64,000 nucleotides of DNA from Psammoneis japonica (Eukaryota). The notes beneath the pieces were generated by a model. It saw only the letters and a list, made by a program, of their open reading frames with translations, was not told the origin of the DNA and did not search any database. How positions within the stretch are numbered: position 1 is the first letter of the stretch; each line of letters starts with the position of its first letter. The stretch spans positions 310,001 to 374,000 of the forward strand of contig QPGO01000063.1 in the NCBI GenBank assembly GCA_008632985.1. Direction: 5' to 3'. Both the position numbers and the translations under genes were made by a program. Shown piece after piece: positions 1 to 64,000 of this stretch.

Positions 1-40
1 TGCTCTTACTGATAGCTTGTAAAAGTAAAAGTTGAAAGTG

Positions 41-948: not shown

Positions 949-1110
949 TGCAGTGTCTCGCACCTTATTTTTCTGATATATAGTATTAATGACCCTATTA
1001 GATATAACGGAAGCCGTTGTAACGGGCTTCGCTGAAAGCGACCCTCGTTACCTCGGTCTTTCGCTCACAATTTTGTCATCACTGAAGTCTTTATCTCGTA
1101 AAACCTTGCA
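949..1110 (+). repeat. 5' LTR
   Basis: Matches 6175-6336 at all but 3 positions. Confidence 0.97.
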
Positions 1111-1139
1111 CTGTAATTACAGTCGATTTAAAGAACTGG

Positions 1140-1355
1140 ATGGAGACTAGGAATAATACAAACAAATTGACTAAACGTGAGAAAAGAGAACTACGCGCAA
1201 GAGCAGCAGTTTGGGCTGTTGAGCACCAGAAACAAGTGCAACAACGTAAACGACACGAACAGAATTTGGCGAGCCGAGTGCATCATTTGGAGTCAAAGGT
1301 AGAGTCCCTGGAGAGGACCATTGAACAATTGCATTCCCTTTTTCATGATGAGTGA
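1140..1355 (+). CDS. Small basic/leucine-zipper ORF upstream of gag
   Basis: 71 aa. A basic stretch (KREKRELRAR...QRKR) is followed by L-x6-L-x6-L-x6-L (LASRVHHLESKVESLERTIEQL). Its 3' end overlaps the putative gag ATG. Confidence 0.5.
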   Translation: METRNNTNKLTKREKRELRARAAVWAVEHQKQVQQRKRHEQNLASRVHHLESKVESLERTIEQLHSLFHDE

Positions 1356-2567
1356 ATCGTTGAAGGAGCCTTGCATTAGCCATGAAGCCAAATTTGAGCA
1401 TTCTGACTTGGAGGAAGTGAAATTGACCCAATCGCATGATGACGGCAGCACTCGTACAAAAAAAGTGTCCGCGTTTTGATGGTGCTCATGGTGTTGAAGC
1501 ATTGTCATTCGTTGAGGATCGTTTTCGTAAAAATTGCTGTGAAATTGGAGCACACTGCTGGCGAGGAATTGTTCGAAAATTTCGAGGAAGTGCTTGCGGA
1601 TGCTGCAGAGGACAAGTGGGCGAACTTGACCAATGCAGTTGACGATGCCGATAAAACTGTCGAGCGTTTTGATCAGGAAATCAATCGTTTTTACTTGTCT
1701 TATTGTGATGATGAAGCGCGTGACACTTTGATTGAACATTTGCCAACTTTGAAAAAACCATTCAAATCTGAAGTGCAGGCGCATGCAGATCGCATGGAAA
1801 CCCTGATTCGGTGCTCCAACAAACTTCCAGGAAATGCTCCTCAAGTCAACGAAGCTCAGAAGAAAAAGATGATGTTCGACAGCTTTCCTCGTCCGTGGCA
1901 TGAGATGTGTGCTCGAGCAGGACGAGCGACAGCGAACGACACTCTCGCTGAGATCATCAGCCACATGAACAACGAGAAATCTTTTGCTGACAAGAGCAGC
2001 AACAAGAAGCAGGACAAGAAGAGAAAAAGCAATGGTGCTTCGTCTCAAGCTTCAAGACGCTCTCGTGGCAACAGTGGCAGAACGGATCCAGAATCTAGAT
2101 GCCCGGTGCATGCGAATCACGACCACAAGTGGAAGGATTGCATTTTGAATCCAGAAAGCCAAAACCATCGACCGAGGTCCGACCGTGGCGGTCGTAGCGG
2201 AGGTCGTGGTGGAGGCCGAGGAAACCACCAAGGTGGAGGACCCCAAGGTCAAGGCGGTCGTAGCAACTTCCAAGGTCGAGGACGTGGCAATTGCGGCAAT
2301 CAAGGAGGACATGGAGGCCGAGGTTACGGCAATTATGACAACTCCCAGAATTCTCAAGGGAATGGATCCCACTGCCAAAATCAAAACGGCACCCAAGCCA
2401 ACGGTGACACCCAAGGCCATGGAAATCCGGCTGGAGCAGCTGCTCCTGGTGGCTGGCAAATGGAGTCGCACCATTTTGATCAAGGAGGGCCTCGTGAGAT
2501 GCGAGGTGGAAATGGACACGATCAGAACGGTCGCACCCATCAAGGCCAACGAAGTTGGCGCAATTGA
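1345..2567 (+). pseudogene. gag: gag of Ty3/gypsy (frameshifts in poly-A runs near 1460 and 1530)
   Basis: Capsid-like region, CHHC knuckle CPVHANHDHKWKDC and RGG-rich C-terminus. The N-terminus is distributed over more than one frame, joined at A homopolymers. Confidence 0.8.
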
Positions 2568-5500
2568 CAAGGGACGGAAGTGCCCGAGTCAGAGCGTGTC
2601 GCTCAATCTTTTTATGTTTCGTGTGATCGTGAAGAAAACACATGTTTTAATGTTGATGACAATGTGGGAGACCTGATGGAATCTTGTGCTGTGAATGAAG
2701 AAAAATTGGGCGGCGTTTTGGAGTGCGCTGCACCAACCCCTAAAACCATGACTCCTGAACCATTGAATGTGGTGCCAACGACGTTGATGGCGGTGCGTGC
2801 CATTCAAAATCAAGAGAGCAAGCGAGTGTCACGAGTGCCATTGGATTCAGGAGGTGCTGACACTCTCATTCATTCTCGAGTTTTGCCGAAGGGAACGAAT
2901 CCAACCATGAACGATGAAGGACGGTTGAGCTTTCAGACGGCAGCCGGACGATGTGAATCCTCCCGATGCGTTGTTGTGAAGGACTTGACATTGCCAGAAT
3001 TTGACAAGTCAAAACAAGTCGACAGCATTGCGGCTCAAGTATTTGATGCCCCATGCAAGTGTGATTTAATTTTGGGACAAGACTTTTTGTCGAAAGCCGG
3101 AATCGTGCTTGATTTTCGATTTGGAATGATGAAGTGGTTGGAAACGTCGATCCCAATGAAGCAATCCAATCATTGGAACTCAGTTCAGAATTGGTTGGAT
3201 GCACTGGAAGATGACGGAGAGGACGAAGACGATGAGGGAGCCTTCGGACAATCTTTTATGATGGACACCAAATGCGAGAAAGTGTCATCCGCGAAAGTGG
3301 CGCAAGCTCAAACTCACTTAACTCAAGAGCAACGTGATGAGCTACAGGCAGTGCTTGAAAAGCATGAAACCCTCTTTGATGGAATGCTTGGCAAACATCC
3401 GCATGAGACTGTTCACTTGGAAGTTGATCCCAACGCTGTTCCCTTCCATTCTAAGGCTTGCGAAGTGTCCAAGAGGGATGAAGCCGTTTTTAAGAAAGAA
3501 CTGCAACATTTGTGTAACATTGGCGCATTGGAGCCAGTGGGACCAACTGAATGGGCAGCCGGAACTTTTGTAACTCCCAAAAAGGATGGACGAGTTCGAT
3601 GGGTGTCCGATTTTCGAGAGTTGAACAAGGCACTCAAACGAAAGGTCTATCCTCTGCCGATCATTCAAGACGTTATTCACCGACGCTCGGGATGCAAGTG
3701 CTTGACCAAGTTGGACCTCACTGTGTTTTATTGTCACATCGAGCTTGACGAAGAATCCAAGGATTTGTGTGCCATTGTTGCTCCGTTTGGAAAATTTCGA
3801 TGTTGTCGATTGGCAATGGGTTTGAAAACCTCTCCTGACATTGCTCAAGCCATCATTGAAAAAGTGGTAAAAGGAATCGATGTTGAAACTTACATTGATG
3901 ATATTGCTCAATTTGATGATTCGTTTGATGCTCACATGCGTCGACTCGATGAGCTGTTGTCCAGACTAGAAGAGAACAATCTAAAAATTAACCCACTCAA
4001 GTGCGAATGGTGTGTCCAAGAGACGGATTTTTTAGGCCATTGGCTCACGCCTGCAGGAGTCCGACCGTGGAAGAAGAAAGTGGAAGCGGTGCTACGAATG
4101 CAACCACCTAAAACTATGATGCAACTGCGATCGTTTGTTGGTGCGGTGACTTATCATCGCAACATGTGGCCTCGTCGTTCACACGTGCTCGCTCCACTCA
4201 CGAAGTTAACAGGCAAGAGCAAGTTGGAATGGACCCCTGAATGTCAACGAGCCTTTGAAGACATGAAAACCTTAATGCTGGACGACACCCTTTGGGTCTA
4301 CCCGAATCACAACAAGCCATTCCATGTTTATGCTGACTCTTCAGACTGTCAGATGGGAGCCGCAATTATGCAAGACGGGAAACCAGTAGCTTGCTGGTCC
4401 CGAAAACTCAGCGCAGCACAACAGAACTGCTCTACGATTGAAAAAGAATTATTGGCGGTGGCAATGTGTTTCAAAGAATTTCAAAGCATGTCATTTGGAG
4501 CTGACTGTACTGTTTTTATGGATCATAAAAATCTCACCTTTCGTACGCTCAATTCTCAACGAGTTCTCAGGTGGCGACTCTTCTTGGAAGATTTTGCCCC
4601 AACTTTTGAATACGTTGATGGCAAAGATAATCTCTTGGCGGATTGTTTTTCAAGATTGCCGCGCATGGACCCTCCTACGGAAGGGAAGTGTGCTCCTAAC
4701 AAGGGCAAACTGATTGATTTTAAAACCATCGACCCTGCTGTGCTGCCGCATGAAGAAGAACTGGACGACCAAAACAGTGTGTCTTGTTTTTCCTGTCGTC
4801 GTGAAGAACCATCTCCATTTTACTCTTCCGTCGTGGACGACCCCGAATTGTGTGAATCATTTTTGAACTGTCCTTCTCTCGAGGAAATGCAAAACCCTGC
4901 AACCATGCAATGAATTCAAGAACACCAATTCATCGACGTGGAGCTGAACAACATGCGACAACAATGTCCAGAACGCTTCATGGTGGAACATGTGAATCAG
5001 CGTCCTGCAATTTGTTGTCGTGCTCGACCGAATGATCCTCCGACTGCGTGGAAAATTTGTGTTCCAACGGCGTTGCTGCATGATGTCATACGATGGTGTC
5101 ACAGAATTTTGGGACATGCAGGAGTGCACCGAATGCATTCCACTGTTGGCGCACATTTCCATCATCCTGCCCTTCGTCAATCCTGTGAAAGATTTCATTG
5201 TGCCAATTTTCAACGTTTGAAAACTTTGGGCCCTGGATGTGGGGACCTGCCTGAACGGGAAGCGCCTTTGTTGCCATGGACAGAAGTTGCGGTTGACCTC
5301 ATCGGTCCCTGGAAAATTGAAATTCAAAACCATGAAATCGAATTCAACGCTTTGACTTGCATTGATGCCGTTTCGAATGTGACTGAACTTGTTCGCATCG
5401 ACAACAAAACCTCATCTCACATTGCTCAACAATTTGAAAATTGTTGGTTGTCTCGTCATCCTCGTCCGAACCGGTGCATCCATGACAATGGTGGAGAATT

Positions 5501-6062
5501 CATTGGAGAGGACTTTCAATTGTCATTGCAACGAGCAGGAGTGGAAGACGCTCCAACTGCGTCGCGAAACCCACAAGCCAATGCGGCATGCGAACGCATG
5601 CATCAAACTGTTGGAAATGTCTTGCGCACTTTGCTTCATGTTTGTCCTCCACAGAATGTTGAGCAGGCTGATCAACTGGTGGACAATGCATTGGCAACCG
5701 CCATGCATGCAATGCGATGTGCGGTTTCTCGTGCTCTCAAGATTTCACCCGGTGCCATGGTTTTTCAACGTGACATGATTCTTGACTTGCCGGTCCTGGC
5801 CGATCTTGCCACCATTCAAGAACACCGACAAGCGATTGTCAATGCGAATCTCCGTCGAGCCAACGCTAAACGCCGGTCCTGCGATTTTCAAGTTGGTGGA
5901 CACGTTCTACTCAAGGCCATCGACCCAACCAAGCTCGAGCCACGAGCTCACGGTCCATGTCCTGTCGTTCAAGTCCACGCTAACGGTGCGATTACGGTCC
6001 AACGTGCACCTCATGTGACGGAACGATTGAATGTTCGTCGTGTCGTCCCGCATCGCACCTGA
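2568..6062 (+). pseudogene. pol: pol (protease, RT, RNase H, integrase) with in-frame TGA at 4911-4913
   Basis: PLDSG protease, YIDD RT, ADSSDCQMG/EKELLA RNase H, and integrase VDLIGP..HDNGGEF..CERMH, with GPY/F degraded to GPC. ORFs 2580-4913 and 4938-6062 are in the same frame. Confidence 0.95.
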
Positions 6063-6174
6063 GGTTAAGGGTTTTCTCCCCAACATTTGGGTTTCCCTTC
6101 TATCCTCATCCATTGGAATTTAAATTTTTTGAGTCCCGCATGATTCTCGACACTCGAATCATGGAAGGGAAGAG

Positions 6175-6336
6175 TGCAGTGTCTCGCACCTTATTTTTCT
6201 GACATATAGCATTAATGACCCTATTAGATATAACGGAAGCCGTTGTAACGGGCTTCGCTGAAAGCGACCCTCGTTACCTCGGTCTTTCGCTCACAATTTT
6301 GTTATCACTGAAGTCTTTATCTCGTAAAACCTTGCA
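6175..6336 (+). repeat. 3' LTR
   Basis: Matches 949-1110 and is preceded by a polypurine tract. Confidence 0.97.
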
Positions 6337-8375: not shown

Positions 8376-9188
8376 GGTTGTCTAAAAAGTGAAGAGTCAA
8401 CGTTATGGGTTTCTCGTAAGTGTTCTCTCTTTATGATTTTGTTTTTTTGTGAGAGAAACGAGAAGTGATTTGACGAAGTGGTCTCGAAAGACTCTCGAAT
8501 TCTCGTTTGATAAATGATCACAACATCATTTTTTATTGTGACTGACTAATTTGTCACGTTCGGGCTAGCGCTACGACGCACGTACGGTATGTACAGTAAT
8601 TTGGTGTTTACTTATCAACGCATGTCATGCATGTCCTGAAGTCATTCCCAAAAACCGCAAGACATGATCGATCACATTCTCATTGGCGAAAGGGTCATGT
8701 TGTAAAACACTTACCAGGTGCGCTGAAACTGGCACTTAGACCTGATGCAGACATGCAGCACACATGTCCAAAGTGAAATGACTTGTGACGAACGATCCTG
8801 TTGCCTTCCCTCTTTTGTTTCGGTGAGCGAAAATGACGGCCGCACATGCGAGCAAGGCACTCTGCCAGGACCAGAGGTGGCAACAACTGGAAGCGCAGCT
8901 CCAGCTCCATTCTGAATCTGACACCAACATCACAGCCAATGAAAGGACACTTTGAGTTTCCCCGCAGTTGAAAAAACTGTGGGAGCTTGCAGGGTGGTGC
9001 CCCAAAATGCTCAGAAATGCCACCTCCCACTGCTGCTGCCCTGGATTCTCCCAGTCGCAAATGCCTCCTGTGTCTGTTCTTGTCTTTCAAAATGACGCTC
9101 AGGCTCACCTTGTCACCGCTTGGCACAATCTGCACCACCAGGGGAGTGCAAGGCTTGAGAACTTCAAACAATTCATCGGCAAGGCGAG

Positions 9189-9843
9189 CACTGCAAACAA
9201 AATCCTCAATCTTTAAAGGCACCAACTCTGGGACACACGCTCCATCAGTGCAGTGTCCAGCAGCACGTTCGACAACACAAGACGCATTCCAGCTCTGGGT
9301 GGGACCTCGCACCGGTGCCACTGCACTGTGACATCAACAGTTTTTTGGATCGCGTCGCATGTCGCGCACACACATTTCTGCGTGTTGTGTTCTACAAAAT
9401 TGTTTCATGCTCCCTGTTTTGCGAAGCCAAAGGCTTTCTATTTTCAACATTTGTGTGAGAACAAAAATGCGCTGGGTGTGTTCTACAATGTCTGCAGAAC
9501 ACACCCGGGCAAACCATTGCAAACAAAATCCTCAATCTTCAAAGGCATCAACTCTGGGACACACGCTCCATCAGCGCAGTGTCCAGCAGCACGTTCAACA
9601 ACACAAGACGCGTTCCAGCTCTAGAGGTGGGACCTCGCACCGGTGCCACTGCACTGTGACATCAACAGTTTTTTAGATCGCGTTGCATGTCGCGCACGTG
9701 CATTTCTGCGTGTCACATTCTATGAAATTGTTTCATGCTCCCTGTTTTGCGAAGCCAAAGGCTTTCCATTTTCAACACTTGTGTGAGAACAAAAATGCGC
9801 TGGGTGTGTTCTGTGATGTCTGTAGAACACACCCGGGCAAACT
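9189..9843. repeat. Tandem duplication of about 325 bp (flank plus left part of MITE)
   Basis: 9189-9514 is repeated at 9515-9843, and many of the differences are TA/TG/CA or CG/TG/CA. Confidence 0.85.
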
Positions 9844-10013
9844 GTTGATGATGTGCTCCAAGTGTGAAGGAGGAGATGCGTTCGTAAAATTGCCTCTTTT
9901 TCTGTTGGCGATCATTTGCATTTTCATTGCAGCACAAATTTGCTGCAGAGCTCGCACGTAGAATTCTGCGGGCCCAATGTCACATGGAGTCCCACCTGGG
10001 ACTGGAACCCATC
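9607..10013 (+). mobile_element. MITE family A (about 400 bp, TIR GACG.GTTCCAG, 4-bp TSD ACAA)
   Basis: gacgcgttccag...ctggaacccatc flanked by ACAA on both sides. Related copies lie at 9281-9514 (truncated), 58427-58832 and 63302-63697. Confidence 0.85.
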
Positions 10014-10899
10014 ACAAGCTGCTCCATTTGGCCCAGCATTGCAGACACAACTGTTGGCATCTCCTTTGTGACCACAGATGTTTTTGGTGCAATCGTTGCC
10101 ATCGTCACAATCAGCATCGACACAACACCTGCAACGGCGACAATCGGGCATTCCCAGTGGTGAAGAAACAATTTTCCCAATTGTGCCGGTGCCTTCAGGC
10201 TGGTGATCCACATCCAGGTGTGGATCCCAGAAACCAGCTGGACAAACAATGGGCCCATGTTTGGGGGGTTCAAACAACCTGGAACACATCACAGCATGTT
10301 CAGCAGTGCACTTGCACAACCAGGACATTGGGTGCCAAAATCCACCAAGCATGCTTGTTTGCACTGTTTGGGAGTGAGGCAATCATCACTTTGACAGATC
10401 TTGCAGATGTGTCCATTGCCATCTTTGAAATTGACAAAGCCAACATGTGTGCGATGGCAGCCACATCCGATGTTGGGGAGACAACAGTCATCTGGCATTC
10501 AAGTTGCATGCCAGCCATGCATGTGCCATCCTCACACCTTTCAGCTCCATTGCCTGTGCACTCAACACAACCAAGAAACCTGTCACATGTTTCTTCAGGT
10601 TGGCAGACAAGCTCCATTCCAGCCATGCACATGCGGTCATCCCCGCATGTTCCTTTCCATTGCAGACATGTCCGTCATCGCATTCATTGTCGTGGTGCAT
10701 CTGTGGCTGGCAGGAGGCACAAAAGGTTCAAGGTCCTTTTTGGTCCTGAGATGCCCACGCTCCTCCTTAAGGGACATGGCTCTGCCCAAGACAATCACAG
10801 CAAAGATCGCCTTGGTGAAGTTCATTGTCGCAAAAACTTGGCTGGTGTTTCGTCTGCTGTTTTCAACCACTGACAAATCATTGTGGACATGATGGTGGC

Positions 10900-16800: not shown

Positions 16801-17270
16801 TGGACAAAGCTCAAATTCCTGTGACATTGCAAGGCACATGGCACAATTGTGCACACCTTGGTTCATCACTCAATTGTGCTGTTTTGCCCCAGATGGGGAC
16901 AAGATCATGAAGCCCACTCATGGCTGCCACTCCTTTTGTCACCGTGCTCCAAGCAACTTCTGGCTGCTGGTCCTTGCCCCACCTGGCTTTGTCTGTCAGG
17001 CAGCACGCCCATCTCAAAGTTGCTTTCCAGCTGATCTTGAGGTCCTTGCTGTCTGTCTCATTTGCATCTCCCTCCTCATCTTGAGGTTCTTGCTGTCTGT
17101 CTCATTTGCACCACCCTCCTCAGTTTGTGATTGAGTTTCCTGTGCAACTCATCATCATCAATGTCAGAGGGGCCAGGGATTGCTTGGGGTGCAGCCTCTT
17201 TGACAGGTTGGGTTGGTCTGCCCTCATCCACCCAGGTTGCTTGGGGGGTTTGCTGACTTTCAACTGCTCT
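10900..17270. other. Heavily eroded TpA- and CpG-depleted relic sequence, family not assignable by eye
   Basis: Only one TA in 13201-13800. Fragmentary protein-like stretches occur on both strands. Confidence 0.6.
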
Positions 17271-17274
17271 GGTG

Positions 17275-18330: not shown

Positions 18331-18393
18331 CACAGCAACATTGCTCCCGCATGTTGTGCGAGGTGACGAAATCTGCAGAAACGAAACTACAAA

Positions 18394-24117: not shown

Positions 24118-24119
24118 CT

Positions 24120-49400: not shown

Positions 49401-49500
49401 ACTGTCGACAATGTCAAAAAAGGCAGGGCATTTGTGGGTGCATGGAAGTGCATGCTGCAGAGATGGAAACAGCAAAATGGACAACCTGGGAGGTGCCAAA
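43500..49500. other. Eroded TpA-depleted relic, probably accessory ORFs of DNA transposons
   Basis: Protein-like fragments, mainly on the minus strand at 43556-47400, with no motif I can assign. Confidence 0.4.
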
Positions 49501-49516
49501 AGACCATTTGCTAAAT

Positions 49517-52500: not shown

Positions 52501-53640
52501 CCAGCATGCGGGAGGTGAAGAGACTGGCTGTGAGGGGCACTCGTGCTGTTGCCAGTCATTTCGGTGTGGCATCACCATCAGGTGATGCTGGTCCAGGCTG
52601 GTCGCTGTGTGCCCCTGCTGCACACATGTGCGCTGGGGGTGTGGGTTAGCTTGTTGCCGGAGTTGCTGGGCGGAATCGCAATGGCACCTTAAAAATGGAT
52701 GTTTGGTTTTGTTTTCTCACATGACTCCCAGTGCTTGTGGGTGGTGTGGTCTTGTGTCTCCTTGACCACAGCCTCCTTCCTTGAATTTGCTGCATCTGGC
52801 TGCTTCACAGCTTCATGCATGTGCACAGTGTCTGGGTCAGCAGAGGCTTTCAAGGAACAAACCACAGGATCATCGAGATCCACCTGGAAATCATGTTCTG
52901 AGCACATGCATTGGTCCAATGTTTTGAATTTGGATCTGCACAACATGACATTGGCATGGCGCTGCAGTTCTGACTCGATCATGCGCTTTGTTGGTTGAAC
53001 AGTGCGTCCAGACCATGTTGCTCTCATTGCTGGCAGAGGCTCTGGTTTGGGTGCTTTGGACTCTGGAAGCAATTCAGGGGTTTCAGATGCTCCCTCATTC
53101 ATCGTGGTTGCATGTCTTTGTCCTCCTCAACCAGCTCCTCTGGAACAGCCACTTCTTTGGGCATTTCAGCAGGTTCGATGTCATGGCGGATGTCATTGCA
53201 ATTCACGGTTCTGGCGCGTGCTGTCGTCTTGGTCTTTTCTTCGACTTGTGGTTGAACTTGTGAGTCTCGAATGAAGTGACAGATCTGTTACAGTGTGTTG
53301 CCAGCAGGACTCAGTCGCGTGTTGAGATTTGAGCATTTCGAACAAATTGTCGAACCTCACATGACACTGTGGCGAGACCATGCCCGCTGAGAGGTTCAAC
53401 ACCAAAGCGACCGACCGACAGTGCCGCGGTGATGGTCCAAGGTGTGGACCAACTCGACAACGAGAGTCGCACTTGGGGACAGCGTTGTTTGACTGCAATT
53501 TGTTGTGCAAAACATAAGACAGGACAAGCGAATGGATGAAAGTGCCGGATTTGCTTGTCACATTTGAATTTTCTTGTGCGAAGCGGCACAAAAAAGTGTG
53601 CGCGCAGTCAAACCCTGTGTCTGCAGAACAGTGTGGCAGG
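49517..53640 (-). mobile_element. 5'-truncated Ty1/copia (integrase C-terminus, RT, RNase H, 3' LTR)
   Basis: HFHPFACPV, RVGPHLGPSPRH, VWSMKCK, VCTDDC (YxDD>CTDD), CVDADFCG, WSSKLQT and QQADFLTK. LTR 49517-49841 is bounded by TGTGAGAAC/GTTCTCACA and preceded by PPT gagggag. Confidence 0.9.
51402..52712 (+). mobile_element. 5'-truncated LINE nested in copia RT
   Basis: 18-bp TSD tttctcacatgactccca (51384-51401, 52713-52730), RNase H end KWTKGH...LNVRADKTA, CCHC finger CTHCSHPMEDWDHIPKC, and a T-rich tail. Confidence 0.88.
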
Positions 53641-55384: not shown

Positions 55385-55881
55385 TTACTTCAACCCTACA
55401 GGATTCGCAGGGCTACTATGTAGGGCCTAATCTCTAGCTACGAGTAATATAATAGATTCTCTCTAGCTAGCTAGAGTACGCCGTAGCTACTACTGTAGTA
55501 GGTATGAAAAGAACAAAATCACGGCACTAATCCGCGACCAAAACCGGCGGCGCGCGCGACGACTACAGCACTGTAGACCGTAACAACAAGGGGAACACAG
55601 GATCCTCCCCGGTCAAATACATAGCGCCTGCCCCGCAACTGACCCAACCCACCCACGAGTTTGAAATGGCCGTTGTTAAGTAATCCTTCTTGCCCCAAAC
55701 TGACCCACTTATGGGAAACTAATGTTTTAAGATCATAACTGAAAATGATCATAACTTTTATTTAACAAGTTCATGTGAACTCCAGCCGAATTGCGCCATC
55801 GACCAAGGTTTGAAATGTGTGAAAAAGCAAACAAAGTTTCCTCGAGAGCACAACGAGTCAAAACAAAAGCCCAGAATCACC

Positions 55882-57430
55882 ATGGCAACACGAGTTCTGG
55901 TCCCCTTCTCACACAGCAACCGTTGCTTTGATCGCACTCATGCTGACAATGACAACAGTCGTTTCAAAATCAAGCATGGAGCGCCGCTTCCCAGTGCTGC
56001 TGCCATGGCAATGGCAAAGGAAAAGACAGTTGAGGCGGCTGAAAAGATGGGACTGACGATGTCCAACGAGAAGGCTGAAAAATGGCTTGGCACCAGGTGC
56101 TGCGAAAAGAAGAGCAAGCAAAAGCACAATGGAATGCCAGGCAATCTTGGCCGTTTCCTTGTTCTTGTTGGCGACTGCGATTCTTTGTTGATGCTGCATG
56201 AGCATGCACCAAAAAACTGCGCTTCAATGGACCCAAAGAGCATCGTGCTTTTCTGCAAGTGCAAGCGCAACGAGAAAGGCGTTCTTTTACGTGGAGACAA
56301 TGATGAGATTGTGAAAGATGTGCGCGGCACTCCCACCGAATGTGCGGGTGAGTGGAAGGATCCAGATTGTGTCGCCGGCTTGCGCACCGCAGCAAATGCG
56401 CTCCACGAGATTCACGATCAGTGTGGCAAACTCCAGAATCATTGCACTGACTGTGTTCATCTTCCACCAGAGGACCGATTCAAGGGCTGCGATGCACATT
56501 CGGGCCATCCAAAGCTCTGCCGCAAAGGAAGTCCCGTGTTCTCTGAGGTGTGGAACAATTGTCGCATGCAAAACAAGAAGGACGGGGCGAAGCACAAGAG
56601 CCATGGTTGCGAACAATCTCACCCAAGGACACATGCCTGCTCCGAAACCACCTCCTCTCAAGCAACATGATGCAAGGCCTCCAGTTGTTCGTGACAATGC
56701 TCATTGCTGTCCGCCTCTTCCTCCGTCAAGATGAGTTCAGCGACATGGAGATGTCCAATTTCCTCACCACCCTGACTGTCGTGACAGCAACAGGCGTGCA
56801 TGGGTCAGTTGCTGAAATTCAAGGAAAGTCTGATCCACATCCAGTTCGACTTGCATTGTGGGAGGAGGAAGAGTTTCCTGAATTTTGCCCACTTCATCAT
56901 TTGTGGATTTATCTCCATGTGAGCGGCACAAAGGGTGGACACCTGTTTCCAAGTGAAAAGAGCTGGCAAACACACCAGAGGATGGGGTGAGCAAAACCAA
57001 GATAGAACATTGGAAAGTGATGGACACTCTCCAGAAAATGTTTTGCACAGCATTGAACAAGCCCAACGTCAAGCTTGGAACACACAGCTTTCGCAAGATG
57101 GCTCACCTTTTCTGCGCATGGGCTGACGCAACAATGGCGGATGTCATGAAGAGTGCTCGCCACAAGACCCTGAAGCATGCTGAAAAATGCCACATGGATG
57201 CGTTGTCGCCAAAGGACATCGGTGCCATTCATGACGATCCCATGGAGTGCGTCCCTTCCAAGTGGAAGTGTGTCCTACGAGAAAGCGAAGGCAACTTGAG
57301 TCAGACAAATGCCCCTGCAGTTCCATTCCAAAAACCGCTGTCAGTTCGACCCTTGTGTCCGCAGATGTCATTTTTTTGCCCGACACATTGCATTTTCCGA
57401 TTTGGCTCAAAAGTGCATTTGACATGAGGT
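55882..57430 (+). mobile_element. Degenerate tyrosine recombinase, Crypton-like
   Basis: LFLR (Arg), CPL, GTHSFRK (HxxR), ARH and AEKC, where the catalytic Tyr is expected (TGC at 57188-57190). Several frameshifts. Confidence 0.75.
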
Positions 57431-58426
57431 CAAAAATTACCTGCACATGCACTCCGACCTCTGACAAACCACATTCCCCTGCAGGTGCTTGCGACAGTTT
57501 GACTCTTCTTTCATTGTGATGTTCTGCTTTTTGTGATGAAAATGCAGACCATTGAAAATGTGGCCCGGCTGAGCTGACTTGTCCTCTGCAGCAGCTGGCA
57601 ACATTCGTTCTGAAATCTGCGGTGCGCCAGAAATTGCACTCGAACGCCTGGCCACTCACGGTGGCTCACAAAACCGCAACCAATTTCCCATGACTCCATC
57701 ACTCCTCTCCTCACTCTCAAGCCCTGTCATCTCTTTTGGGCCCAATCATGAGGTGATGCGAGTGATGGCCCACCATCAGCAACCCGCTTTTTCCTCACCT
57801 CCTGTGCACACATGAGGGTGCAAACTGGAAAAATTGGGCAAGCAGATCAACTGTTTGGTTCAGAGGATTGACCCCCATTTGGCTTTTTTTGTTTTTGCAC
57901 TCAAACAAGAAAAAACTCTTCTTGTTGCAGCTGCGCAACAATGATTTCTCCGATTGCGTCTCCACAAAGGGGCCAACGGAAAATGTTGGCTCTGCAAAAA
58001 TGCACAGGTGCATCACTGAGGCAAACCAAGGGTGTCTCACACATTGAGCTCATGTGTCAAAGACTGGCAAAGGTGACTTTTGACACATTCTGTGTGCGCG
58101 CCACTCTGTGTTCTTGGCAAGCCAAGAAAATGCTCTGTTCAAAAGCATTTTTACATTGGCCATTCAAAGCAGGCAACTCCACAGTCAAAAAAACCAATCT
58201 TCTGGTGCACACAGCAAACCTGCTGGGCTTGAGCTTTTGTGCAAATGGGCGCCACAACGCTTGCACTCACTGAGCTTCCCCAGCCTGTGCCCTTTCCTCT
58301 TTGCCCCTTGTCTCCTCTGCACTCTTCACTTTACACTTCCACCCCGGCACCCAAGCTCCCCATTTTCCAAATTTCACCACTGACAATGCTTTCATTTGGA
58401 GATCTTTCCAACCACAAAATCCTCAA

Positions 58427-58832
58427 GATGTGCTCCAGCTCTGGGTGGGACCTTGAACCACTGAGCTGCAATGTCAGAGTTTTTTGTCATGTGCTGCAGC
58501 ATGTCATGTGCACACTTTTTCTGTCTGTGATCTTTGACAAAACTGTCCCATGCTCCCTGCTTTGTGAAGCGAAAGGCTTTTTGTTGTGCTCATTTGTGAG
58601 AGAACAAAAGTTTGTGGCATGCACTCTTTGACATCTGAAGAGCACACTTGGGCAAAGTCATGATGACATGCTTCAAGTGTGGGGAAGCTTTTTGCACTTG
58701 CAAAATTGCCTTTTTTTGTTGGCAGTCATCATTTGTGTGTTTGTCACCCAGTGGATTTGCTGCAGAGCTTGCAAGCAGAATTCTGCAGGCCCAAAGTCAT
58801 GCTCAATTGCGCCCAGCAGGGCTGGAAATGCA
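58427..58832 (+). mobile_element. Old copy of MITE family A
   Basis: Colinear with 9607-10013 (ccagctctgggtgggacc...gcagaattctgc.ggccca). TA-free. Confidence 0.75.
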
Positions 58833-61800
58833 CCAGGTGCGAGCCTCTGTTCCATGCTTTGGCGTGTCTGTTGCAAACTTTTTTCAGTCATCATTTGCTT
58901 GGTCCAATGCAAAGATGATGTGTTGAGCAACTGCATTGTGCAGATCATTGTTCAACAAGCACCCAATGTCATTTCTGGCAAATTTCCAATTTTTGCACAA
59001 GCCACACTTCCTTGTGTCATTCGTGCTAAAGTGCAGACCATTGACAGGCAAGAGCCATTTCTTTCGGAGGCCCTTTTCACACATTGCTCCACTTTGTTGC
59101 TCCTTTGCCACCATCAATGACAATGCATCACATGATGAAAGTGCCAATCTTCTCGTGTGGTCCACATTTGTAAAATCTCTCACTTGTGTCTGCTTTTGGT
59201 GAGACAATGTCTCCTCCACACACACGTTGTGCCTGAGCAAAGACCTGAATTTTGTTTGGTCACAAGGGTGGTGTGCAACTGGCAGACTTGTCAGTTGTTG
59301 GTCCAGTTGTTGGAGATGATTGAGGTGCAGAAGAGAGCCAGTGGAGAAACTCCAGATTGCTGGAATCCTGGTGAGATGCCAACATTGAAGACAGGGCAAA
59401 CCTCACATTGGGGTGCTGTTAAAGAAGCTGTCATTGGTCTGCTGAATGAGGGTGTGGCAAGGTTGTGTCAGTGTTGGTGAGCCAGAGTGCAAGGCTGTTG
59501 GCAAGCCATGAAACTCTGACCAAGTCCCAGAAATGTGGGCAAGGACAGAGCTGAGTGTGGAAACACAAAAGATTTAGAGGAACATGGTGCATGACGCCAT
59601 TGACGAGTTGGGGGACAACAGGCAGATGGTTGCATGGAAACCACAAGGAAGATCAGTGAATGCTGTTGGAAGAAAGTTTGGGCCGGAGATGCAGGTGCTG
59701 GTGTCTCTGAGGTGGGAGAACATGCCAAAAGAGCTGGGTTGTCCATTGGGAGACACTGCATCCTCAGAGAAGGATGAGGCAATCTGGGGGAAGCAATGCA
59801 ATCACCATGCAAAACAGAATGCGATCTGCAAGATGCAGAAGGTGAATGTGTTTGACATTGTTGTGGGGCAAGTTTACACTGGGCATTGACACTCATCCCA
59901 ATTCAGCCAAGGAGGTGCTGCAGGTGTTGGACACCACCTGTGGGACCAACAAGAAACCTGATTGCACAAGTTTTGTGCAGAATGAGAAGACCAAGGTAGA
60001 TTAAATGCTGGAAATGCAAAATGAGGTTGGGCATGTGAGAAAGGATTGTCCAGACAATGATCATCCATTGGTGGAGTCAGACAACATGGACTGCAGGAAT
60101 TGACAGAACAGTTGACATGGTGTTGGGTGGCATGGATTCCAAGTGTCATCTTCCTGTGCTTGACACACATGAGGTGGTCAATCAATTGACGGCTTGTGCA
60201 AACAAGTGTGTTGGAACATTGGCATCAGAGGCAGTTTTTGCAGGACAGACAGACAAAGTTGTTGTGGAAAGCACGCTGATGATTGTGGACAATTGTTCAG
60301 CAAGTTTGCATTCCTGGCTTGGATTAAGTTGGGGGTCTTGTGCACACATTTTAGCTTCTGCACCCAGTTGACATGGTGACAGTGGTTGATGGCATCAGGA
60401 ATGTACATTTGATTGTGTTGAAGTCCACACACATTTAAATGTTTTGCCATCAAGTGCTTTTTTGGCAGGAAAACAATTGCATGAACACAATGTTGTGCAA
60501 GAACATCAACTGATCCTCACAAAAACTCTTTTCTGACTTCCACTTGTGGTCAGAGAGTGATCCGCACAAGTGCAAGAAATCTGACGCCATTTTTCCTTGA
60601 AGTTGATTGAGAGGATTCCATGTGTCTTGCTGCCAAGCATGGCAGGCATGTTGAGTTGGAACCTTCACCTGACACAGGAGGAGCTTGTCATCAATTGAGC
60701 ACTCCTCTGGGTTTTGATGCTGCCCACAGTGTGGGCAATGCACATGATTCTGAGCATGTGTTGATGGAGGCAAATGCAGACACTGGCAACAAGTGTGGAT
60801 GCATCCAAGCACTGCTTGCCTCCAGAGAGGATGTGCTTGCTGTCATCAACTCATTTTCTTCCTTGGAATGAGCAGCACATGCAATCATCAGGAATTTCAT
60901 TGAAGGTGAGGACTGAGGTGAAGAAGAAACTGAGGAGGAAGTTGCAGCAGCAGCAGCTGGCAGTTGGACTGGCCCATTGGTGCCTTCCATTGTGCAACTC
61001 ACATTCAAACTGAGTGCCTTGCAAAGGGAGACAACTGAGAGCAGCAGCAAGGCCATGGACAACAAGAAGGATGAGGAGCTCATGCACCACCCAGATGTTG
61101 TGGCTGTTGGCACCATGACCAGATCAACTTGGCACTGCTTGGCCATGACAACCAAAATGTCAAAGCATGCTCATGACACCCATGTCTGTCTTGTTTTCAC
61201 AATGAGCACACAACAAATTGCACTGTCTCTTCCTTTGTTCTAAAGAGGAGAACAGATGCTGGTGACTGTAACAAATCCGCAAAGCACTGCAAAACTTTTT
61301 AGTCTGAGAAGGCAGGAGACATGAAGCCCACCACAAGGAACACCTGCTTGTCTTGGCAACAACTGGAGGCCAAGGCAACACATTTGGCAAAACCAACCCA
61401 AGGCAAGCCAGAGCCAGATTAAAGTTGTTGCAAGGACTTGTGCATTCTGAAAAGAGCTGGCTCTACATTTGCTCTGATGATGGCCATTTGCATGATTTGC
61501 TGTTAGAGTCCTTGAGACATGCAAACAAGACAGCAAGACTGACATTCACAAAAAGATCTTGGAGTGTGTGTGATGCAACACATTGCACAAATGAAAGGTG
61601 TGACATTGTCATCAAAGGAGGCAGAAGCTGAGACATCACAGCTGATGGATGAACTGGTGGGTGCCACTTGCAACTTTGCCAAGAGAGCTGCAGGAGAACC
61701 AAAACCATGCAGTTTCTCTCCCCAAGCTCATGCAGATGGCCTTGGCAGAGCCCTGGCACCTGCCCAAGGAGAGGGCATTCCCAAGGATTTGGGTTCTTTG

Positions 61801-62175
61801 GGATCAGTTGTGAAGCTCAGATCTGACTTCTGCTTTGACCCCATGATGCATGCTGAGTGTGCAAATGTGCCTCATGTGCAAATGACGACCAATGATTCAT
61901 GCACCTCTGATCACTGGCTTGCCTGGCTGGAGACGCCCCCCAGGTCAAAGGTCATGGTCAGAGGCAAACAAAACAGAAGCAGGTACTGCGCACAAAAAAC
62001 TGGTCAGTCTTCTTCCAACCAGTCTGTTCTCTTGTAAAAGAAAACTTTGCAAAATGACTTTCAGAGTGGCTTCCCATTGTTTGACATGCAAACCCAGTCT
62101 GCAAGCATCAGTGAGAAGGTCAATTTAGATCTTGGTGAAAACAGCTGGACAAATGAACGTTGCAACACAGTGCAA

Positions 62176-62531
62176 CAGTGTTTCCCGAATGTGCATTTTG
62201 GTCGGACCAAATTGGCATTTTGGTCAAACCAAAATGCTTTTGTCGACCAAATTGCCAGACCGACCTGATCAATTTGGTTGACCAAATTGACATTTGCAAA
62301 ATCTCGACCAAATTCATTTCATGCACATTTCCACACAAACAATGCCAACACAGCTTCTACGAAATTTGCATGGCATGTGTCGACATGCGCATTTTGCCAA
62401 ATTTCCCCAACCAAAATGACATTTTTGGGAAACAAAATCATTTTGGTCGCGAGCATCAAATTTGTCAACAAACTTGGTCTGACCAAAATGCCAATTTGGT
62501 CGACCAAAAAATGCACATTCGGGAAACACTG
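62176..62531. mobile_element. MITE with CAGTGTTTCCCGAATGTGCATTTT TIRs and internal ttggtc/gaccaa repeats (hAT-like ends)
   Basis: Clear terminal inverted repeats. No matching TSD seen. Confidence 0.8.
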
Positions 62532-62626
62532 ATGGGGGGGGCAAGTGGCACATTGCCATTTTCTAAGAAAAATGAATGAATGCTGCCATGACAGCTGAGA
62601 ATTGGGTGCAAGACAAGACAGAGTGT

Positions 62627-64000
62627 TGAACAGCATCAACAGGTTCTAGAATTGTGAGATGTTGCGCTGCTGGGGCCACTGAACAAGCGACAGTGGACCA
62701 ATCGCCAACAGCACTTAAACTGCCTGCATCCGTGACAGTGCATCAGCATTTGTTCAGTCCCCTCGAACTGACGCCAGCTCCGCTCGGGTCAGATCGACAG
62801 ACAAATGCAACCTGATGCTGCCCCATTCCAGGGCAGCAATTGCATTTTGGGGGTGGGAAAAAGCCGCACCTATGCGGCAAACCCGTTCGGTTTGTCCCCT
62901 TTGGGGCTCACCACAGGATGTGACTTATGATTTCCCGGAGCTTCGGCCCAGGCAACAACTTGGTCAGTGCATCCGCTAGATTCGTGTGTCCATCTTCCCA
63001 AGCAATGCGCACTGTTCCAGCGGCTTGTGCCTCACGAGTCCTGTGATGGGCAATTGCATTGTGCTTCTTCTTCAAAGTGGACTCTGGTTTAGTTGAGTTC
63101 TTGAAGACAGCTTCATTGTCGCAGAAAACGTCAGTGGCCCCATCCATGGGGATTCGAGCATCCGAAGCTTGCAACGCAAGGCTTCAATTTGCTCCACTGC
63201 AGTCTTCACAGCCACGAACTCCGACCCAAAAGCAGAGGACTCTACGGTGTTCTGCCGCTTAGAGTGATGCAAGATGGGCACTTGTTGGATAAAGATCAGG
63301 AGACGGGTTCCAGTCCCAGGTGGGACTTTTTGTGACATTGGGCCCGCAGAATTCTGCGCGCGAGCTCCGCAGCAAAATTGTTGAGCAATGGACACATGAA
63401 TGATCGCCAACAGAAAAAGAGGCAATTTTGCGAACGCATCTCCTCCTCCACACTTGAAGTACATTCTTTGCGGCATGCCCGGGCAAACTCTTTAGACATT
63501 AAAGAACACACCCAGCGCATTTTTGTTGACGTGAGTGCAGATGACAGAAAGCCTTTGGCTTCGCAAAACAGGCAGTGTGGAACAATTTTTTATAATAGAA
63601 CACGTAGAAATGTACGTGCAAAACATGCGACGGATGATAAAAAATGATTGTGTCACAGTTCAGTGGCACGAGGTCCCACCTGGAGCTGGAACACGTCAGG
63701 ATCCCAGTGTGGGACCTGCGCGTCACACGGCATCCGGCGTGATCAGCATCGACAAAGCAAGCAGCAGTCACGTCATTCCTGCGTGCCTCCGGCACATTCG
63801 GCGGCATTGGTTCAGCCGCGCCAGGGTGACATTCTTCCCAATCACACTTGGTGAAGCGACTCTCATCAAAGACGGGCTCAGTGTTGTCGAACACCAGCGC
63901 AGGCAGACTTAGAATGAGCCTTCAAGTGTGCAAAGACATGGAGCACCTTGTCCAGGTGTCCAACTCGTGGTGCCGCCAAGTGGGAGGACATGAGCGAAGA
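62627..64000 (-). mobile_element. Ty1/copia 3' part (RT end, RNase H, putative short 3' LTR 62627-62756)
   Basis: FVDADHAG..TRRSHTGIL|IF...SKRQNTVESSAFGSEF, FCDNEAV, LKKKHNAIA and NLADALTK. PPT gaggggac is followed by TGAACA...TGTTCA. Confidence 0.9.
63302..63697 (-). mobile_element. MITE family A nested in copia RNase H, TSD AGGA
   Basis: gacgggttccag...ctggaacacgtc flanked by AGGA (63298-63301, 63698-63701). Excision restores GILIF. Confidence 0.9.

What the first reader, a model, noticed from the sequence alone, without database searches (positions are those of the whole stretch)
949..64000. Repeat-targeted TpA>TpG/CpA hypermutation: a 'reverse-RIP' genome-defence-like system
Seen: nearly every transposon and dead gene copy has lost TA dinucleotides (one TA in 13201-13800 versus 19 in 21601-21780), while adjacent functional genes keep them. 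Protein motifs show the predicted codon changes: Tyr>Cys/His (YxDD>CTDD in copia RT, GPY>GPC, a 374-aa integrase with zero Tyr) and Leu>Pro (LLDSG>PLDSG and LPDSG in the two proteases). This is A>G at TpA on either strand. Established: fungal RIP does the opposite (CpA/TpG>TpA), and 5mC deamination explains only CpG loss. Inference: an active mutator confined to silenced or repetitive chromatin. Candidates are a DNA adenine deaminase (TadA-derived editors prefer TA), decay of a modified base at TpA, or error-prone Pol eta-type patch repair (A>G at WA). I do not know of a characterised system that does this.
Basis: partly seen in the sequence, partly recalled or inferred. Interest (0 to 1): 0.97.

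Follow-up and report, generated by a model that had tools for sequence, protein, structure and literature searches.

The report
TpA-to-TpG/CpA hypermutation of diatom transposons
In this diatom-like genome, two thirds of the window (transposons, repeats and a dead gene copy) has had almost every TA converted to TG or CA while neighbouring genes are untouched, which is the footprint of a targeted DNA mutator so far reported only in a 2026 preprint on an unrelated alga.

Summary
84 of 128 500-bp windows have TA observed/expected below 0.25. The deepest blocks hold 138 TA against about 2,300 expected, with TG/CA at 1.8. Accurate-read contigs of a public run reproduce the depleted sequence.

Polarised comparisons show the direction and context.
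- A dead copy of the neighbouring PhyH-family gene lost 21 of 22 TA (10 to CA, 9 to TG).
- Conserved Tyr in gypsy and copia polyproteins became Cys or His.
- A bona fide LTR pair differs only at three TA/CA sites.

Both strands are hit, and post-duplication DNA copies are hit independently, so this is a DNA-level process. CpG decay is superimposed but separable: 27 windows are TA-only depleted and none is CG-only depleted.

Named homologues are diatom proteins. A 2026 bioRxiv preprint shows the same TpA-restricted A:T>G:C hypermutation arising de novo in viral insertions of Bigelowiella natans. I found no diatom report.

The enzyme is unknown. The leading inference is adenine deamination. Unexplained: one young gypsy has TA-rich LTRs, and a 1.1-kb TA-normal island lies inside a depleted element.

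Verdict: new member of a very recently described kind, high interest.

The parts
949..6336 (+). Complete gypsy LTR retrotransposon. LTRs at 949-1110 and 6175-6336, TG..CA ends, 5-bp target duplication AGTGA. Interior is TA-depleted with normal CpG; the LTRs are TA-rich.
   Evidence: LTR pair 98.1% identical over 162 bp. TSD, and three LTR differences that are all TA versus CA. Pfam RVT_1, RNase H and rve. Interior TA o/e 0-0.5 against 0.8-1.0 in the LTRs; polyprotein Tyr 0.9%, Cys 3.6%, His 4.1%.
8700..9842 (.). TA-depleted repeat, including a 2 x 328-bp tandem at 9192-9842.
   Evidence: The tandem units differ by 24 transitions and 0 transversions, including 5 CA-versus-TG sites. Summed contig depth is very high at 9339-10005.
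9701..17500 (.). Deeply TA- and CpG-depleted block of unrecognisable origin.
   Evidence: TA o/e 0.05, CG 0.21. No Pfam family in any ORF of at least 90 aa. Reproduced by run contigs 9987-13282 (4 other letters), 13417-14073 (0) and 14655-17302 (14).
17272..20880 (+). Second gypsy-type element with LTR-like repeats (17298-17704, inverted copy 18039-18333). TA-depleted, CpG normal.
   Evidence: tblastn of gypsy homologues matches 19457-19849 and 20358-20735, and 17740-18063 on the minus strand. Marginal Asp_protease_2 match.
20900..22000 (+). TA-normal island: RT and RNase H of the same collinear gypsy pol.
   Evidence: 85 TA in 1.1 kb with sharp edges. RVT_1 and RNase H Pfam matches. Collinear with the depleted upstream part. 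Conserved Tyr kept 10 of 15.
22001..24900 (.). TA- and partly CpG-depleted block, with an LTR-like repeat at 22095-22500.
   Evidence: TA o/e 0.07, CG 0.48. The pair 17298-17704 / 22095-22500 has 32 of 33 differences as transitions and 10 CA-versus-TG sites.
24136..24833 (+). Dead copy of part of the PhyH-family gene and its downstream flank (source 32726-33403).
   Evidence: 80% identity over 670 columns. 22 TA in the gene copy: 1 kept, 10 CA, 9 TG. 26 CG: 7 kept, 10 CA, 7 TG. Context rates.
24997..28740 (.). Host genes with ordinary TA content: Rad52-domain ORF (24997-25716, +) and ankyrin-repeat ORF (26968-28740, -).
   Evidence: Pfam matches. ORF TA o/e 0.38 and 0.50.
29101..32300 (.). Deeply TA- and CpG-depleted block.
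   Evidence: TA o/e 0.07, CG 0.26. No Pfam family.
32726..39232 (-). Host genes with ordinary TA content: PhyH-family dioxygenase (32981-34171) and a Vps39-like protein with a COP-gamma platform domain (35344-39232).
   Evidence: Pfam. Homologues named from diatoms. TA o/e 0.48-0.51.
39801..53600 (.). Largest TA- and CpG-depleted block. Holds a degenerate copia element on the minus strand (RT-RNase H 49842-51419, integrase 52680-53624).
   Evidence: TA o/e 0.06-0.07, CG 0.21-0.29. RVT_2 remnant, E 5.5e-7. tblastn with copia homologues. Conserved Tyr 1 of 12 kept (6 His, 3 Cys); conserved Arg 9 of 19 kept (5 His, 2 Cys, 1 Trp).
55801..63400 (.). TA- and CpG-depleted block with a small copia C-terminal fragment at 62914-63129 (minus strand).
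   Evidence: TA o/e 0.06-0.12. Border at 55,800 goes from 7 to 0 TA per 100 bp. tblastn.

Best explanation
Non-genic DNA of this diatom-like genome has been processed by a DNA-level mutator. The affected DNA includes LTR retrotransposons, tandem and dispersed repeats, a dead gene copy and much unrecognisable DNA. The mutator converts TpA to TpG or CpA (A:T>G:C at the A of 5'-TA on either strand), nearly to saturation, in tracts with sharp edges that stop at functional genes. This is the same mutational signature that a 2026 preprint caught arising de novo in integrated viral DNA of the chlorarachniophyte Bigelowiella natans, so I read it as the same kind of genome-defence-like hypermutation in a second SAR lineage.

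A slower, separable CpG>TpG/CpA decay follows in the same tracts. That decay is what 5mC deamination in methylated diatom TEs would give.

Shown here: the direction of change, the TpA specificity, strand symmetry, independent hits in DNA copies, sparing of genes, and TA loss coming first with CpG loss nested inside it.

Inferred, at roughly 0.45: the chemistry is enzymatic deamination of adenine to inosine in a 5'-T context by a nucleic-acid deaminase (ADAT2/TadA-like or another member of that superfamily), with inosine read as G at the next replication.

Inferred, weakly: targeting follows a chromatin or 'foreign DNA' state, not sequence duplication as such, and activity is episodic.
For: Direction and specificity
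- Gene copy versus dead copy: 21 of 22 TA lost (10 CA, 9 TG, 2 other). Of 2 TA in the dead copy, only 1 is CA in the gene.
- A>G per A by 5' base: T 14/30, A 6/64, C 7/75, G 2/74. C>T per C by 3' base: G 14/45, others 2-5 of 56-74.

Protein-level polarisation
- Gypsy: conserved Tyr 7 of 18 kept, 9 Cys, 2 His. All conserved residues: 275 of 321 kept. Left-out homologues keep a median 95% of Tyr.
- tblastn columns: gypsy Tyr 7 of 22 kept (10 Cys, 4 His); copia Tyr 1 of 12 kept (6 His, 3 Cys).

DNA-level and independent hits
- All 3 differences of a TSD-flanked LTR pair are TA versus CA.
- Repeat pairs differ almost only by transitions (32 of 33; 24 of 24). The commonest class is CA in one copy against TG in the other (10 and 5 sites).

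Strand symmetry
- TG and CA are both 1.80 in the deep blocks. Both Cys and His outcomes occur in elements of either orientation.

Not drift
- GC content is the same in depleted and normal blocks.

Genes spared
- ORF TA o/e 0.38-0.51.

Order of events
- 57 windows are TA- and CG-depleted, 27 TA-only, 0 CG-only, 44 neither.

Sequence is real
- Run X1 holds 88% of sampled words. Its contigs of 3299, 657 and 2649 bp match depleted DNA with 4, 0 and 14 other letters.

Precedent
- In B. natans, 231 of 302 de novo SNMs lie in two viral regions, 230 of them A>G or T>C, all of these on TpA. TpA-poor CDS there are enriched for RT and DDE domains. An ADAT2 homologue is proposed.

Same signature elsewhere
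- 1 of 120 listed gypsy homologues (P0173) has Tyr 0.8%, Cys 3.6%, His 3.6%, with conserved Tyr 3 of 18 kept, 9 Cys, 4 His.
Against: - No de novo event was observed, so current activity is not shown. None of the 14 best-supported run-versus-assembly differences that I checked (of 40 rows printed; 1602 more were not shown) is a TpA>TpG/CpA change.
- The run that confirms the sequence may be the data the assembly was made from. It excludes a consensus or basecalling artefact only if its reads are of a different chemistry.
- In the young gypsy at 949-6336 the LTRs are TA-rich while the interior is depleted. Most of its depletion therefore predates this insertion, or LTRs are spared. A simple 'every integrated copy is mutated along its whole length' model fails.
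- A 1.1-kb TA-normal island sits inside a collinear, otherwise depleted gypsy pol.
- About 92% of the deeply depleted DNA has no recognisable origin, so 'TE' is an inference there.
- The adenine-deaminase step has no support from this window. No deaminase domain was found among the ORFs scanned and no genome is held.
- A strand-specific 3'-neighbour preference, suggested by the surviving TA contexts, was not borne out in the polarised pair: 8 concordant, 7 discordant, 3 ties.
- Five metagenomic gypsy relatives are not depleted, TA o/e 0.45-0.71.
Confidence: 0.8

Rival explanations
1. Same targeted TpA hypermutation, but with chemistry on the thymine. A dioxygenase of the TET/JBP type would oxidise T at TpA (to 5-hydroxymethyl- or 5-formyl-uracil), and the oxidised base would mispair with G, giving T>C.
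For: TpA is a palindrome, so T>C on one strand cannot be told from A>G on the other. Every count fits equally well. I recall (from no call here) that dinoflagellate 5-hydroxymethyluracil is enriched at TpA and TpC, and that 5-formyluracil promotes T>C.
Against: No evidence from this window for such a base or enzyme. 5-hydroxymethyluracil itself pairs well with A (recalled). The B. natans authors favour adenine deamination and name an ADAT2 homologue, but this too is untested.
Confidence: 0.15
2. Editing coupled to retrotransposition: A-to-I editing of the element's RNA, or deamination of single-stranded cDNA, before integration (ADAR-like or APOBEC3-like in logic).
For: The young gypsy at 949-6336 has TA-rich, nearly identical LTRs but a depleted interior. 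LTRs are the part of a retroviral cDNA that stays single-stranded for the shortest time (recalled).
Against: - Both outcomes occur on the sense strand: gypsy Tyr gives 10 Cys and 4 His, copia 6 His and 3 Cys. TG and CA are equal in the deep blocks.
- Sequences that never pass through RNA in their present arrangement are hit: a 2-unit tandem repeat and a gene duplicate with its flank.
- LTRs of one integrated, TSD-flanked element have diverged only at TpA.
- There is no 5'-to-3' gradient along the gypsy interior.
Confidence: 0.05
3. Error-prone patch repair by a Y-family polymerase (Pol eta type, A>G at WA) recruited to silent chromatin.
For: Pol eta errors are A>G with a 5' A or T (recalled). 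The tracts have sharp edges, as repair patches might.
Against: A>G after 5' A is at background (6/64) against 14/30 after 5' T. AA o/e is unchanged between classes, 1.21 versus 1.12. Near-saturation of every TA over tens of kb is hard to reach by misincorporation.
Confidence: 0.04
4. Sequencing or assembly artefact: modified bases in TEs miscalled as TG/CA.
For: Both palindromic YpR steps (TA, CG) are replaced by TG/CA, as strand-discordant miscalls of symmetric modifications would give. The confirming run is from the same sample.
Against: - Contigs of run X1 built from exact 31-mers at depth about 59 reproduce kilobases of depleted DNA with 0-14 differences. Noisy reads could not give this.
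- TA-only and TA-plus-CG blocks coexist.
- LTRs and an island inside TEs keep TA.
- The same signature occurs in an unrelated database protein and in Illumina mutation-accumulation data of another species.
Confidence: 0.03
5. No mutator: the TE lineages evolved TA avoidance under selection (UpA-directed RNA decay, codon usage, or avoidance of TA-targeting insertions).
For: UpA is under-represented in many mRNAs. The host genes here have TA o/e of about 0.5.
Against: - The changes destroy conserved catalytic and structural Tyr.
- The TA that remain are not concentrated in Tyr codons: 14, 17 and 28 by codon phase.
- Non-coding repeats and a dead host-gene copy are equally affected.
- Sister copies carry CA versus TG at the same site.
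Confidence: 0.02

Closest known systems
TpA-restricted hypermutation of integrated viral DNA in Bigelowiella natans (Mettrop et al., bioRxiv 2026, 10.64898/2026.01.13.699255)
   Same: A:T>G:C only at TpA, giving TpG or CpA depending on strand. Confined to foreign-derived tracts while the rest of the genome mutates normally. Leaves TpA-poor, CpA+TpG-rich clusters, and TpA-poor CDS enriched for RT and DDE domains. The enzyme is unknown.
   Different: - Host is a diatom-like stramenopile, not a rhizarian.
- Targets here are LTR retrotransposons, tandem and dispersed repeats and a dead host-gene copy, not NCLDV or virophage insertions.
- Depletion here is near saturation (TA o/e 0.03-0.06 over tens of kb, 66% of the window), against Rho 0.45 for the B. 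natans NCLDV region.
- Here it is followed by CpG decay, which the preprint does not mention (0 occurrences of 'CpG').
- Here only the footprint is seen, not de novo events.
Fungal repeat-induced point mutation (RIP; RID/DNMT4-dependent)
   Same: Dinucleotide-specific transition hypermutation of repeated or foreign DNA on both strands, running to saturation and killing TE genes, with sharp tracts. Diatoms carry DNMT4 relatives of RID (passages of PMC9998398).
   Different: - RIP is C>T, mainly at CpA, and creates TpA. Here TpA is destroyed and CpA/TpG created.
- RIP mutates both members of a duplication (recalled). Here the functional PhyH-family copy is unhit.
- No link to a sexual stage is known here.
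5-methylcytosine deamination (CpG decay) in methylated transposons
   Same: Explains the CG>TG/CA component: 17 of 26 CG in the dead gene copy, and copia Arg to His, Cys or Trp. TE methylation is documented in diatoms (PMC9998398).
   Different: It cannot remove TpA. TA-only depleted blocks with CpG o/e 0.90 show the two processes are separable.
ADAR / fungal TAD2-TAD3 A-to-I RNA editing and TadA-derived adenine base editors
   Same: Adenine deamination read as G, with a preference for U/T 5' of the edited A (for ADAR as stated in the preprint's Discussion; for TadA and fungal editing recalled).
   Different: Those natural systems act on RNA. Here the changes are fixed in DNA on both strands and arise in integrated DNA copies.

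Membership tests
TpA hypermutation of foreign DNA (B. natans type) | Substitutions are A>G / T>C and fall on TpA | tested here: met
   21 of 22 TA lost, 19 to TG/CA. A>G after 5' T is 14/30, against 2-7 of 64-75 after other bases. All 3 LTR differences are TA versus CA. An added C>T at CpG is present here.
TpA hypermutation of foreign DNA (B. natans type) | Both TpG and CpA products (either strand) | tested here: met
   10 CA and 9 TG. TG and CA o/e both 1.80. CA-versus-TG sites between copies.
TpA hypermutation of foreign DNA (B. natans type) | Localised to foreign or selfish DNA, with host genes spared | tested here: met
   Gypsy, copia, repeats and a dead gene copy are depleted. Rad52, ankyrin, PhyH and Vps39-like ORFs have TA o/e 0.38-0.51. 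The origin of most depleted DNA is unknown.
TpA hypermutation of foreign DNA (B. natans type) | Arises de novo at a rate about 1000-fold above background, in some lines only | not testable with these tools
   Needs mutation-accumulation or pedigree sequencing. The only recent events seen are 3 LTR differences.
TpA hypermutation of foreign DNA (B. natans type) | Same enzyme or homologous machinery | not testable with these tools
   The enzyme is unknown in both organisms and no genome is held for this window.
Fungal RIP | C>T (G>A) transitions, chiefly at CpA, raising TpA | tested here: not met
   TpA falls to o/e 0.06 and CpA/TpG rise to 1.80. C>T outside CpG is at background.
Fungal RIP | Both copies of a duplication are mutated | tested here: not met
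   The functional PhyH-family copy keeps its TA and its ORF. Only 1 site has TA in the dead copy against CA in the gene. Selection could hide hits on the gene.
5mC-driven CpG decay | CG>TG/CA with other contexts unaffected | tested here: inconclusive
   Met for the CpG component. It does not account for the TpA loss. Methylation itself was not measured.
ADAR/APOBEC-type editing of retroelement RNA or cDNA | Strand-asymmetric changes acquired before integration | tested here: not met
   Symmetric products. Post-integration and non-retroelement targets.
Pol eta WA-motif mutagenesis | A>G after both 5' A and 5' T | tested here: not met
   After 5' A 6/64, against 14/30 after 5' T.

The most novel reading that the evidence does not exclude
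TpA-directed DNA adenine editing is an old genome-defence system shared across SAR lineages (Rhizaria and stramenopiles at least). In this diatom it runs to saturation on most non-genic DNA in discrete, episodic tracts. TE families survive it because hypermutated interiors with intact LTRs are still mobilised in trans. The diatom would then supply the comparative material (many graded targets, a TA-normal island, TA-only versus TA-plus-CG stages) needed to find the enzyme and its targeting signal.
Probability: 0.3. Interest if true: 0.9.

Novelty: new member of a known kind. Interest (0 to 1): 0.75.

Why it matters
Targeted hypermutation as genome defence is established for cytosine (fungal RIP, vertebrate APOBEC3). 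An adenine- or thymine-directed counterpart acting on chromosomal DNA has only just been glimpsed, in one preprint on one alga.

This window shows the same signature in a diatom-like genome, and at a scale where it shapes most of the non-genic sequence. That has several consequences.
- It argues that the process is not a curiosity of one species.
- It gives a second lineage for finding the enzyme by comparative genomics. A natural TpA-specific DNA A>G editor would also interest base-editing work.
- It explains why old diatom TEs can become unrecognisable to homology searches.
- It warns that TE dating by LTR or copy divergence, and mutation-spectrum estimates, will be biased in such genomes.

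Tried and rejected
- No whole genome is held, so I made no genome-wide TA/CG map, no per-family TE alignments and no search for deaminase or TET/JBP genes.
I scanned stop-to-stop ORFs instead: 29 of at least 200 aa, then 148 and 79 of the 264 ORFs of at least 90 aa. Alternative-frame ORFs inside the host-gene regions were left out. No deaminase, dioxygenase or viral family appeared.
- No RNA holder was listed for the stretch searched.
- The run's summed depths (2,000-3,600 over the gypsy, about 59 where single long contigs lie) suggest tens of copies. The tool warns that depth is not copy number.
- None of the 14 best-supported run-versus-assembly differences that I checked (of 40 printed rows) is a TpA>TpG/CpA change.
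- 3'-neighbour preference: surviving TA are enriched in TAA/TTA contexts. Per kb, normal to depleted: TAT 11.1 to 0.31, TAC 11.5 to 0.66, TAG 9.2 to 1.24, TAA 9.1 to 1.86. The direct test of which strand was hit gave 8 concordant, 7 discordant, 3 ties. The pattern may reflect newly arisen TA and not an enzyme preference.
- Five metagenomic gypsy relatives (47-60% identical) are not depleted. They served only as outgroups.
- The protein atlas gave no usable hit.
- Earlier findings of this scan: nothing.
- No tRNA genes and 4 tandem arrays.
- Literature: no diatom report of TpA hypermutation in eight full-text searches. Two diatom TE papers, searched by term only, have 0 occurrences of hypermut-, dinucleotide, deamination or RIP (PMC2806351; 10.1101/2025.10.24.684338).
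- The supplements of the B. natans preprint (per-site tables) are closed and were not seen.

Full report
**1. The observation**

The window as a whole has TA o/e 0.249, CG 0.575, TG 1.56 and CA 1.55. The deficit is not uniform. Segmentation and a 500-bp scan give 84 of 128 windows with TA o/e below 0.25. Of these, 57 are also CpG-poor (o/e below 0.5), 27 are TA-poor only, and none is CpG-poor only. The other 44 windows are ordinary.

Five deep blocks (33.9 kb) hold 138 TA, where 200 shuffles give 2299 +/- 36. Their o/e values are TA 0.06, CG 0.26, TG 1.80 and CA 1.80, with all other dinucleotides near 1 and GC content unchanged. Across windows, TA o/e correlates with TG+CA at rho -0.86 and with CG at +0.75. 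Borders are sharp: 0 to 5 TA per 100 bp at 24,900, next to the Rad52-domain ORF, and 7 to 0 at 55,800.

**2. Is the sequence real?**

No genome is held. One public run, X1, holds 88% of the sampled 31-mers of 22,001-32,000. Laid on 1-20,000, its contigs cover depleted DNA in long pieces: 9987-13282 with 4 other letters, 13417-14073 with none, and 14655-17302 with 14, at word depth about 59. Such contigs need accurate reads, so a noisy-read miscall of modified bases is very unlikely. The run may be the assembly's own data, so this is not fully independent.

**3. What organism?**

The host genes are a Rad52-domain ORF, an ankyrin protein, a PhyH-family dioxygenase and a Vps39-like protein. Named homologues of the dioxygenase come from Helicotheca, Odontella, Cyclotella, Thalassiosira and Skeletonema at 46-53% identity. 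One scaffold is labelled Alexandrium. The Vps39-like protein hits a 'Leptocyl...' entry at 52% and a 'Bolido...' entry at 32%. A gypsy homologue is labelled Cyclotella meneghiniana. The best hits (59-77%) are unnamed. I conclude that this is a diatom with no close sequenced relative in the named sources. This rests on homology alone.

**4. Direction and context of the changes**

*(a) Gene copy versus dead copy.* Positions 24136-24833, inside a depleted block, are an 80%-identical copy of 32726-33403, which is part of the intact PhyH-family gene and its downstream flank. I took the gene as the ancestral state.
- 22 TA: 1 kept, 10 CA, 9 TG, 2 other.
- 26 CG: 7 kept, 10 CA, 7 TG, 2 other.
- The reverse case (TA in the dead copy, CA in the gene) occurs once.
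- With a local-identity filter, A>G per A is 14/30 after 5' T. Each TA offers two As, so about 14 of 15 sites are hit. After A, C and G the rates are 6/64, 7/75 and 2/74.
- C>T per C is 14/45 before G, against 2-5 of 56-74 before other bases. Transversions are rare.

*(b) Proteins.* Forty gypsy homologues define 18 strongly conserved Tyr. The window's element keeps 7, has Cys at 9 and His at 2. It keeps 275 of 321 conserved residues overall. Left-out homologues keep a median 95% of these Tyr. By tblastn columns:
- Gypsy keeps 7 of 22 Tyr (10 Cys, 4 His).
- The degenerate copia keeps 1 of 12 Tyr (6 His, 3 Cys).
- Copia keeps only 9 of 19 conserved Arg (5 His, 2 Cys, 1 Trp), which is the CpG signature.
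- Val to Ala, Ile to Val or Met, and Thr to Ala are the other frequent changes, as expected from TA>CA/TG in other codon phases.

The TA that remain in the gypsy ORF are spread over codon phases (14, 17 and 28). Selection has not shaped the loss.

*(c) Copies against each other.* Repeat pairs differ almost only by transitions (32 of 33; 24 of 24). The commonest class is CA in one copy against TG in the other (10 and 5 sites). This is what independent hits on an ancestral TA give. CpG is still plentiful in these repeats, so ancestral CG is an unlikely source.

*(d) A bona fide LTR pair.* The gypsy at 949-6336 has TG..CA ends, a 5-bp duplication AGTGA and a polypurine tract. Its LTRs differ at exactly three sites, all TA versus CA.

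**5. Level and targeting**

Products are symmetric: TG equals CA in the deep blocks, and both Cys and His outcomes occur in elements of either orientation. A tandem repeat, a gene duplicate and integrated LTRs are all hit. The process therefore acts on chromosomal DNA, not on retroelement RNA or cDNA alone.

The functional gene copy was spared while its duplicate in TE-rich surroundings was saturated. This fits targeting by neighbourhood or chromatin state better than by duplication as such, although selection could hide hits on the gene.

TA-only blocks are the recognisable, apparently multi-copy elements: gypsy 949-6336 and 17.3-20.9 kb (summed depths, with the tool's caveat). TA-plus-CG blocks are mostly unrecognisable. 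Together with the absence of CG-only windows, this gives an order of fast TpA loss followed by slower CpG decay.

**6. Unexplained**

First, the LTRs of gypsy 949-6336 carry 14 and 13 TA in 162 bp (o/e 0.8-1.0), while the interior is at 0-0.5. With only three post-insertion hits in the LTRs, most interior loss predates this insertion. Either mutated interiors with intact LTRs are still mobilised in trans, or LTRs are protected. The LTR-like repeats of the other gypsy are depleted, so sparing is not general.

Second, a TA-normal island at 20,900-22,000 (85 TA, Tyr 10 of 15 kept) lies inside a collinear gypsy pol. The upstream part of that pol (26-30% identity to homologues, Tyr 0 of 3) and its flanking repeats are depleted. 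Candidates are a tract-limited mutator, conversion from an intact copy, or copy-number dependence. I could not test these.

Third, surviving TA are biased to TAA/TTA contexts. The direct strand test was null at 8 against 7.

**7. Comparison with what is known**

Full-text searches found one matching system: a bioRxiv preprint of 2026 on Bigelowiella natans. I read its abstract, Results and Discussion and searched it by term. It reports:
- In 15 mutation-accumulation lines, 231 of 302 nuclear SNMs fell in an integrated NCLDV and a virophage region.
- 230 of these were A>G or T>C, all on TpA, at about 1000 times the background rate, and only in some lines.
- TpA-poor CDS were enriched for reverse transcriptase and DDE domains.
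- An ADAT2 homologue was proposed as a DNA adenine deaminase.

The preprint does not mention diatoms, stramenopiles or CpG.

Two diatom TE papers, searched by term only, do not mention hypermutation, dinucleotides, deamination or RIP. A diatom DNMT paper (passages) documents TE methylation and RID-related DNMT4 genes in many diatoms. That fits the CpG component but not the TpA one.

Fungal RIP is the logical analogue but has the opposite chemistry. ADAR-, APOBEC- and Pol eta-type models each fail a defining feature tested here (see the membership table).

One further database protein, P0173 (49% identical gypsy pol, the only one of 120 listed), shows the same Tyr to Cys/His pattern. The footprint therefore exists in at least one more source.

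**8. Verdict**

It is no longer without precedent. It is best filed as a new, much more extensive instance, in a diatom, of the TpA hypermutation just described in a chlorarachniophyte, with CpG decay layered on top. The enzyme, the targeting signal and current activity remain open. Adenine deamination is the leading but untested mechanism, and thymine oxidation cannot be told apart from it by sequence.

Noticed in passing
window 831-7418: Contigs of runs X1 and X2 join 831 to 7418, skipping the whole gypsy insertion, with 58 other letters between. They match the flanks at only about 87%. This is either a paralogous segment or a divergent haplotype without the element.
   Followed up: no
window 6400-8700 and 1-900: TA-normal flanks of the gypsy have summed contig depth of about 300-530, against about 59 for single long contigs, and many partial-depth variants at 7522-7829. 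They may be a low-copy family that is not TA-depleted. The tool warns that depth is not copy number. The ORF at 7349-8215 (minus strand) has no Pfam family.
   Followed up: no
window 9192-9842 and 9339-10005: A 2 x 328-bp tandem repeat lies in a stretch with by far the highest summed depth (about 78,000). It is probably part of a very abundant satellite-like or dispersed repeat.
   Followed up: partly
window 19832-20323: A 246-bp-arm inverted repeat (80% complementary) lies inside the second gypsy-type element, just upstream of the pol homology.
   Followed up: no
window 51419-52680: A 1.26-kb gap interrupts the copia pol between RT and integrase homology. It may be a nested insertion and it is equally TA- and CpG-depleted.
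   Followed up: no
window 6337-6445 and 41-126: Short tandem duplications (52-bp and 43-bp units, 2 copies each). The first directly abuts the gypsy 3' LTR.
   Followed up: no
protein P0173 (database, 751 aa): A gypsy pol from a JGI source has the same Tyr to Cys/His signature: Tyr 0.8%, conserved Tyr 3 of 18 kept, 9 Cys, 4 His. It was the only one of 120 listed homologues to show it.
   Followed up: partly
window 55723-56667: A 315-aa open frame with no Pfam family runs across the sharp border at 55,800, from TA-normal into TA-free DNA. Long open frames in depleted DNA are expected because TAA and TAG stops are removed.
   Followed up: no
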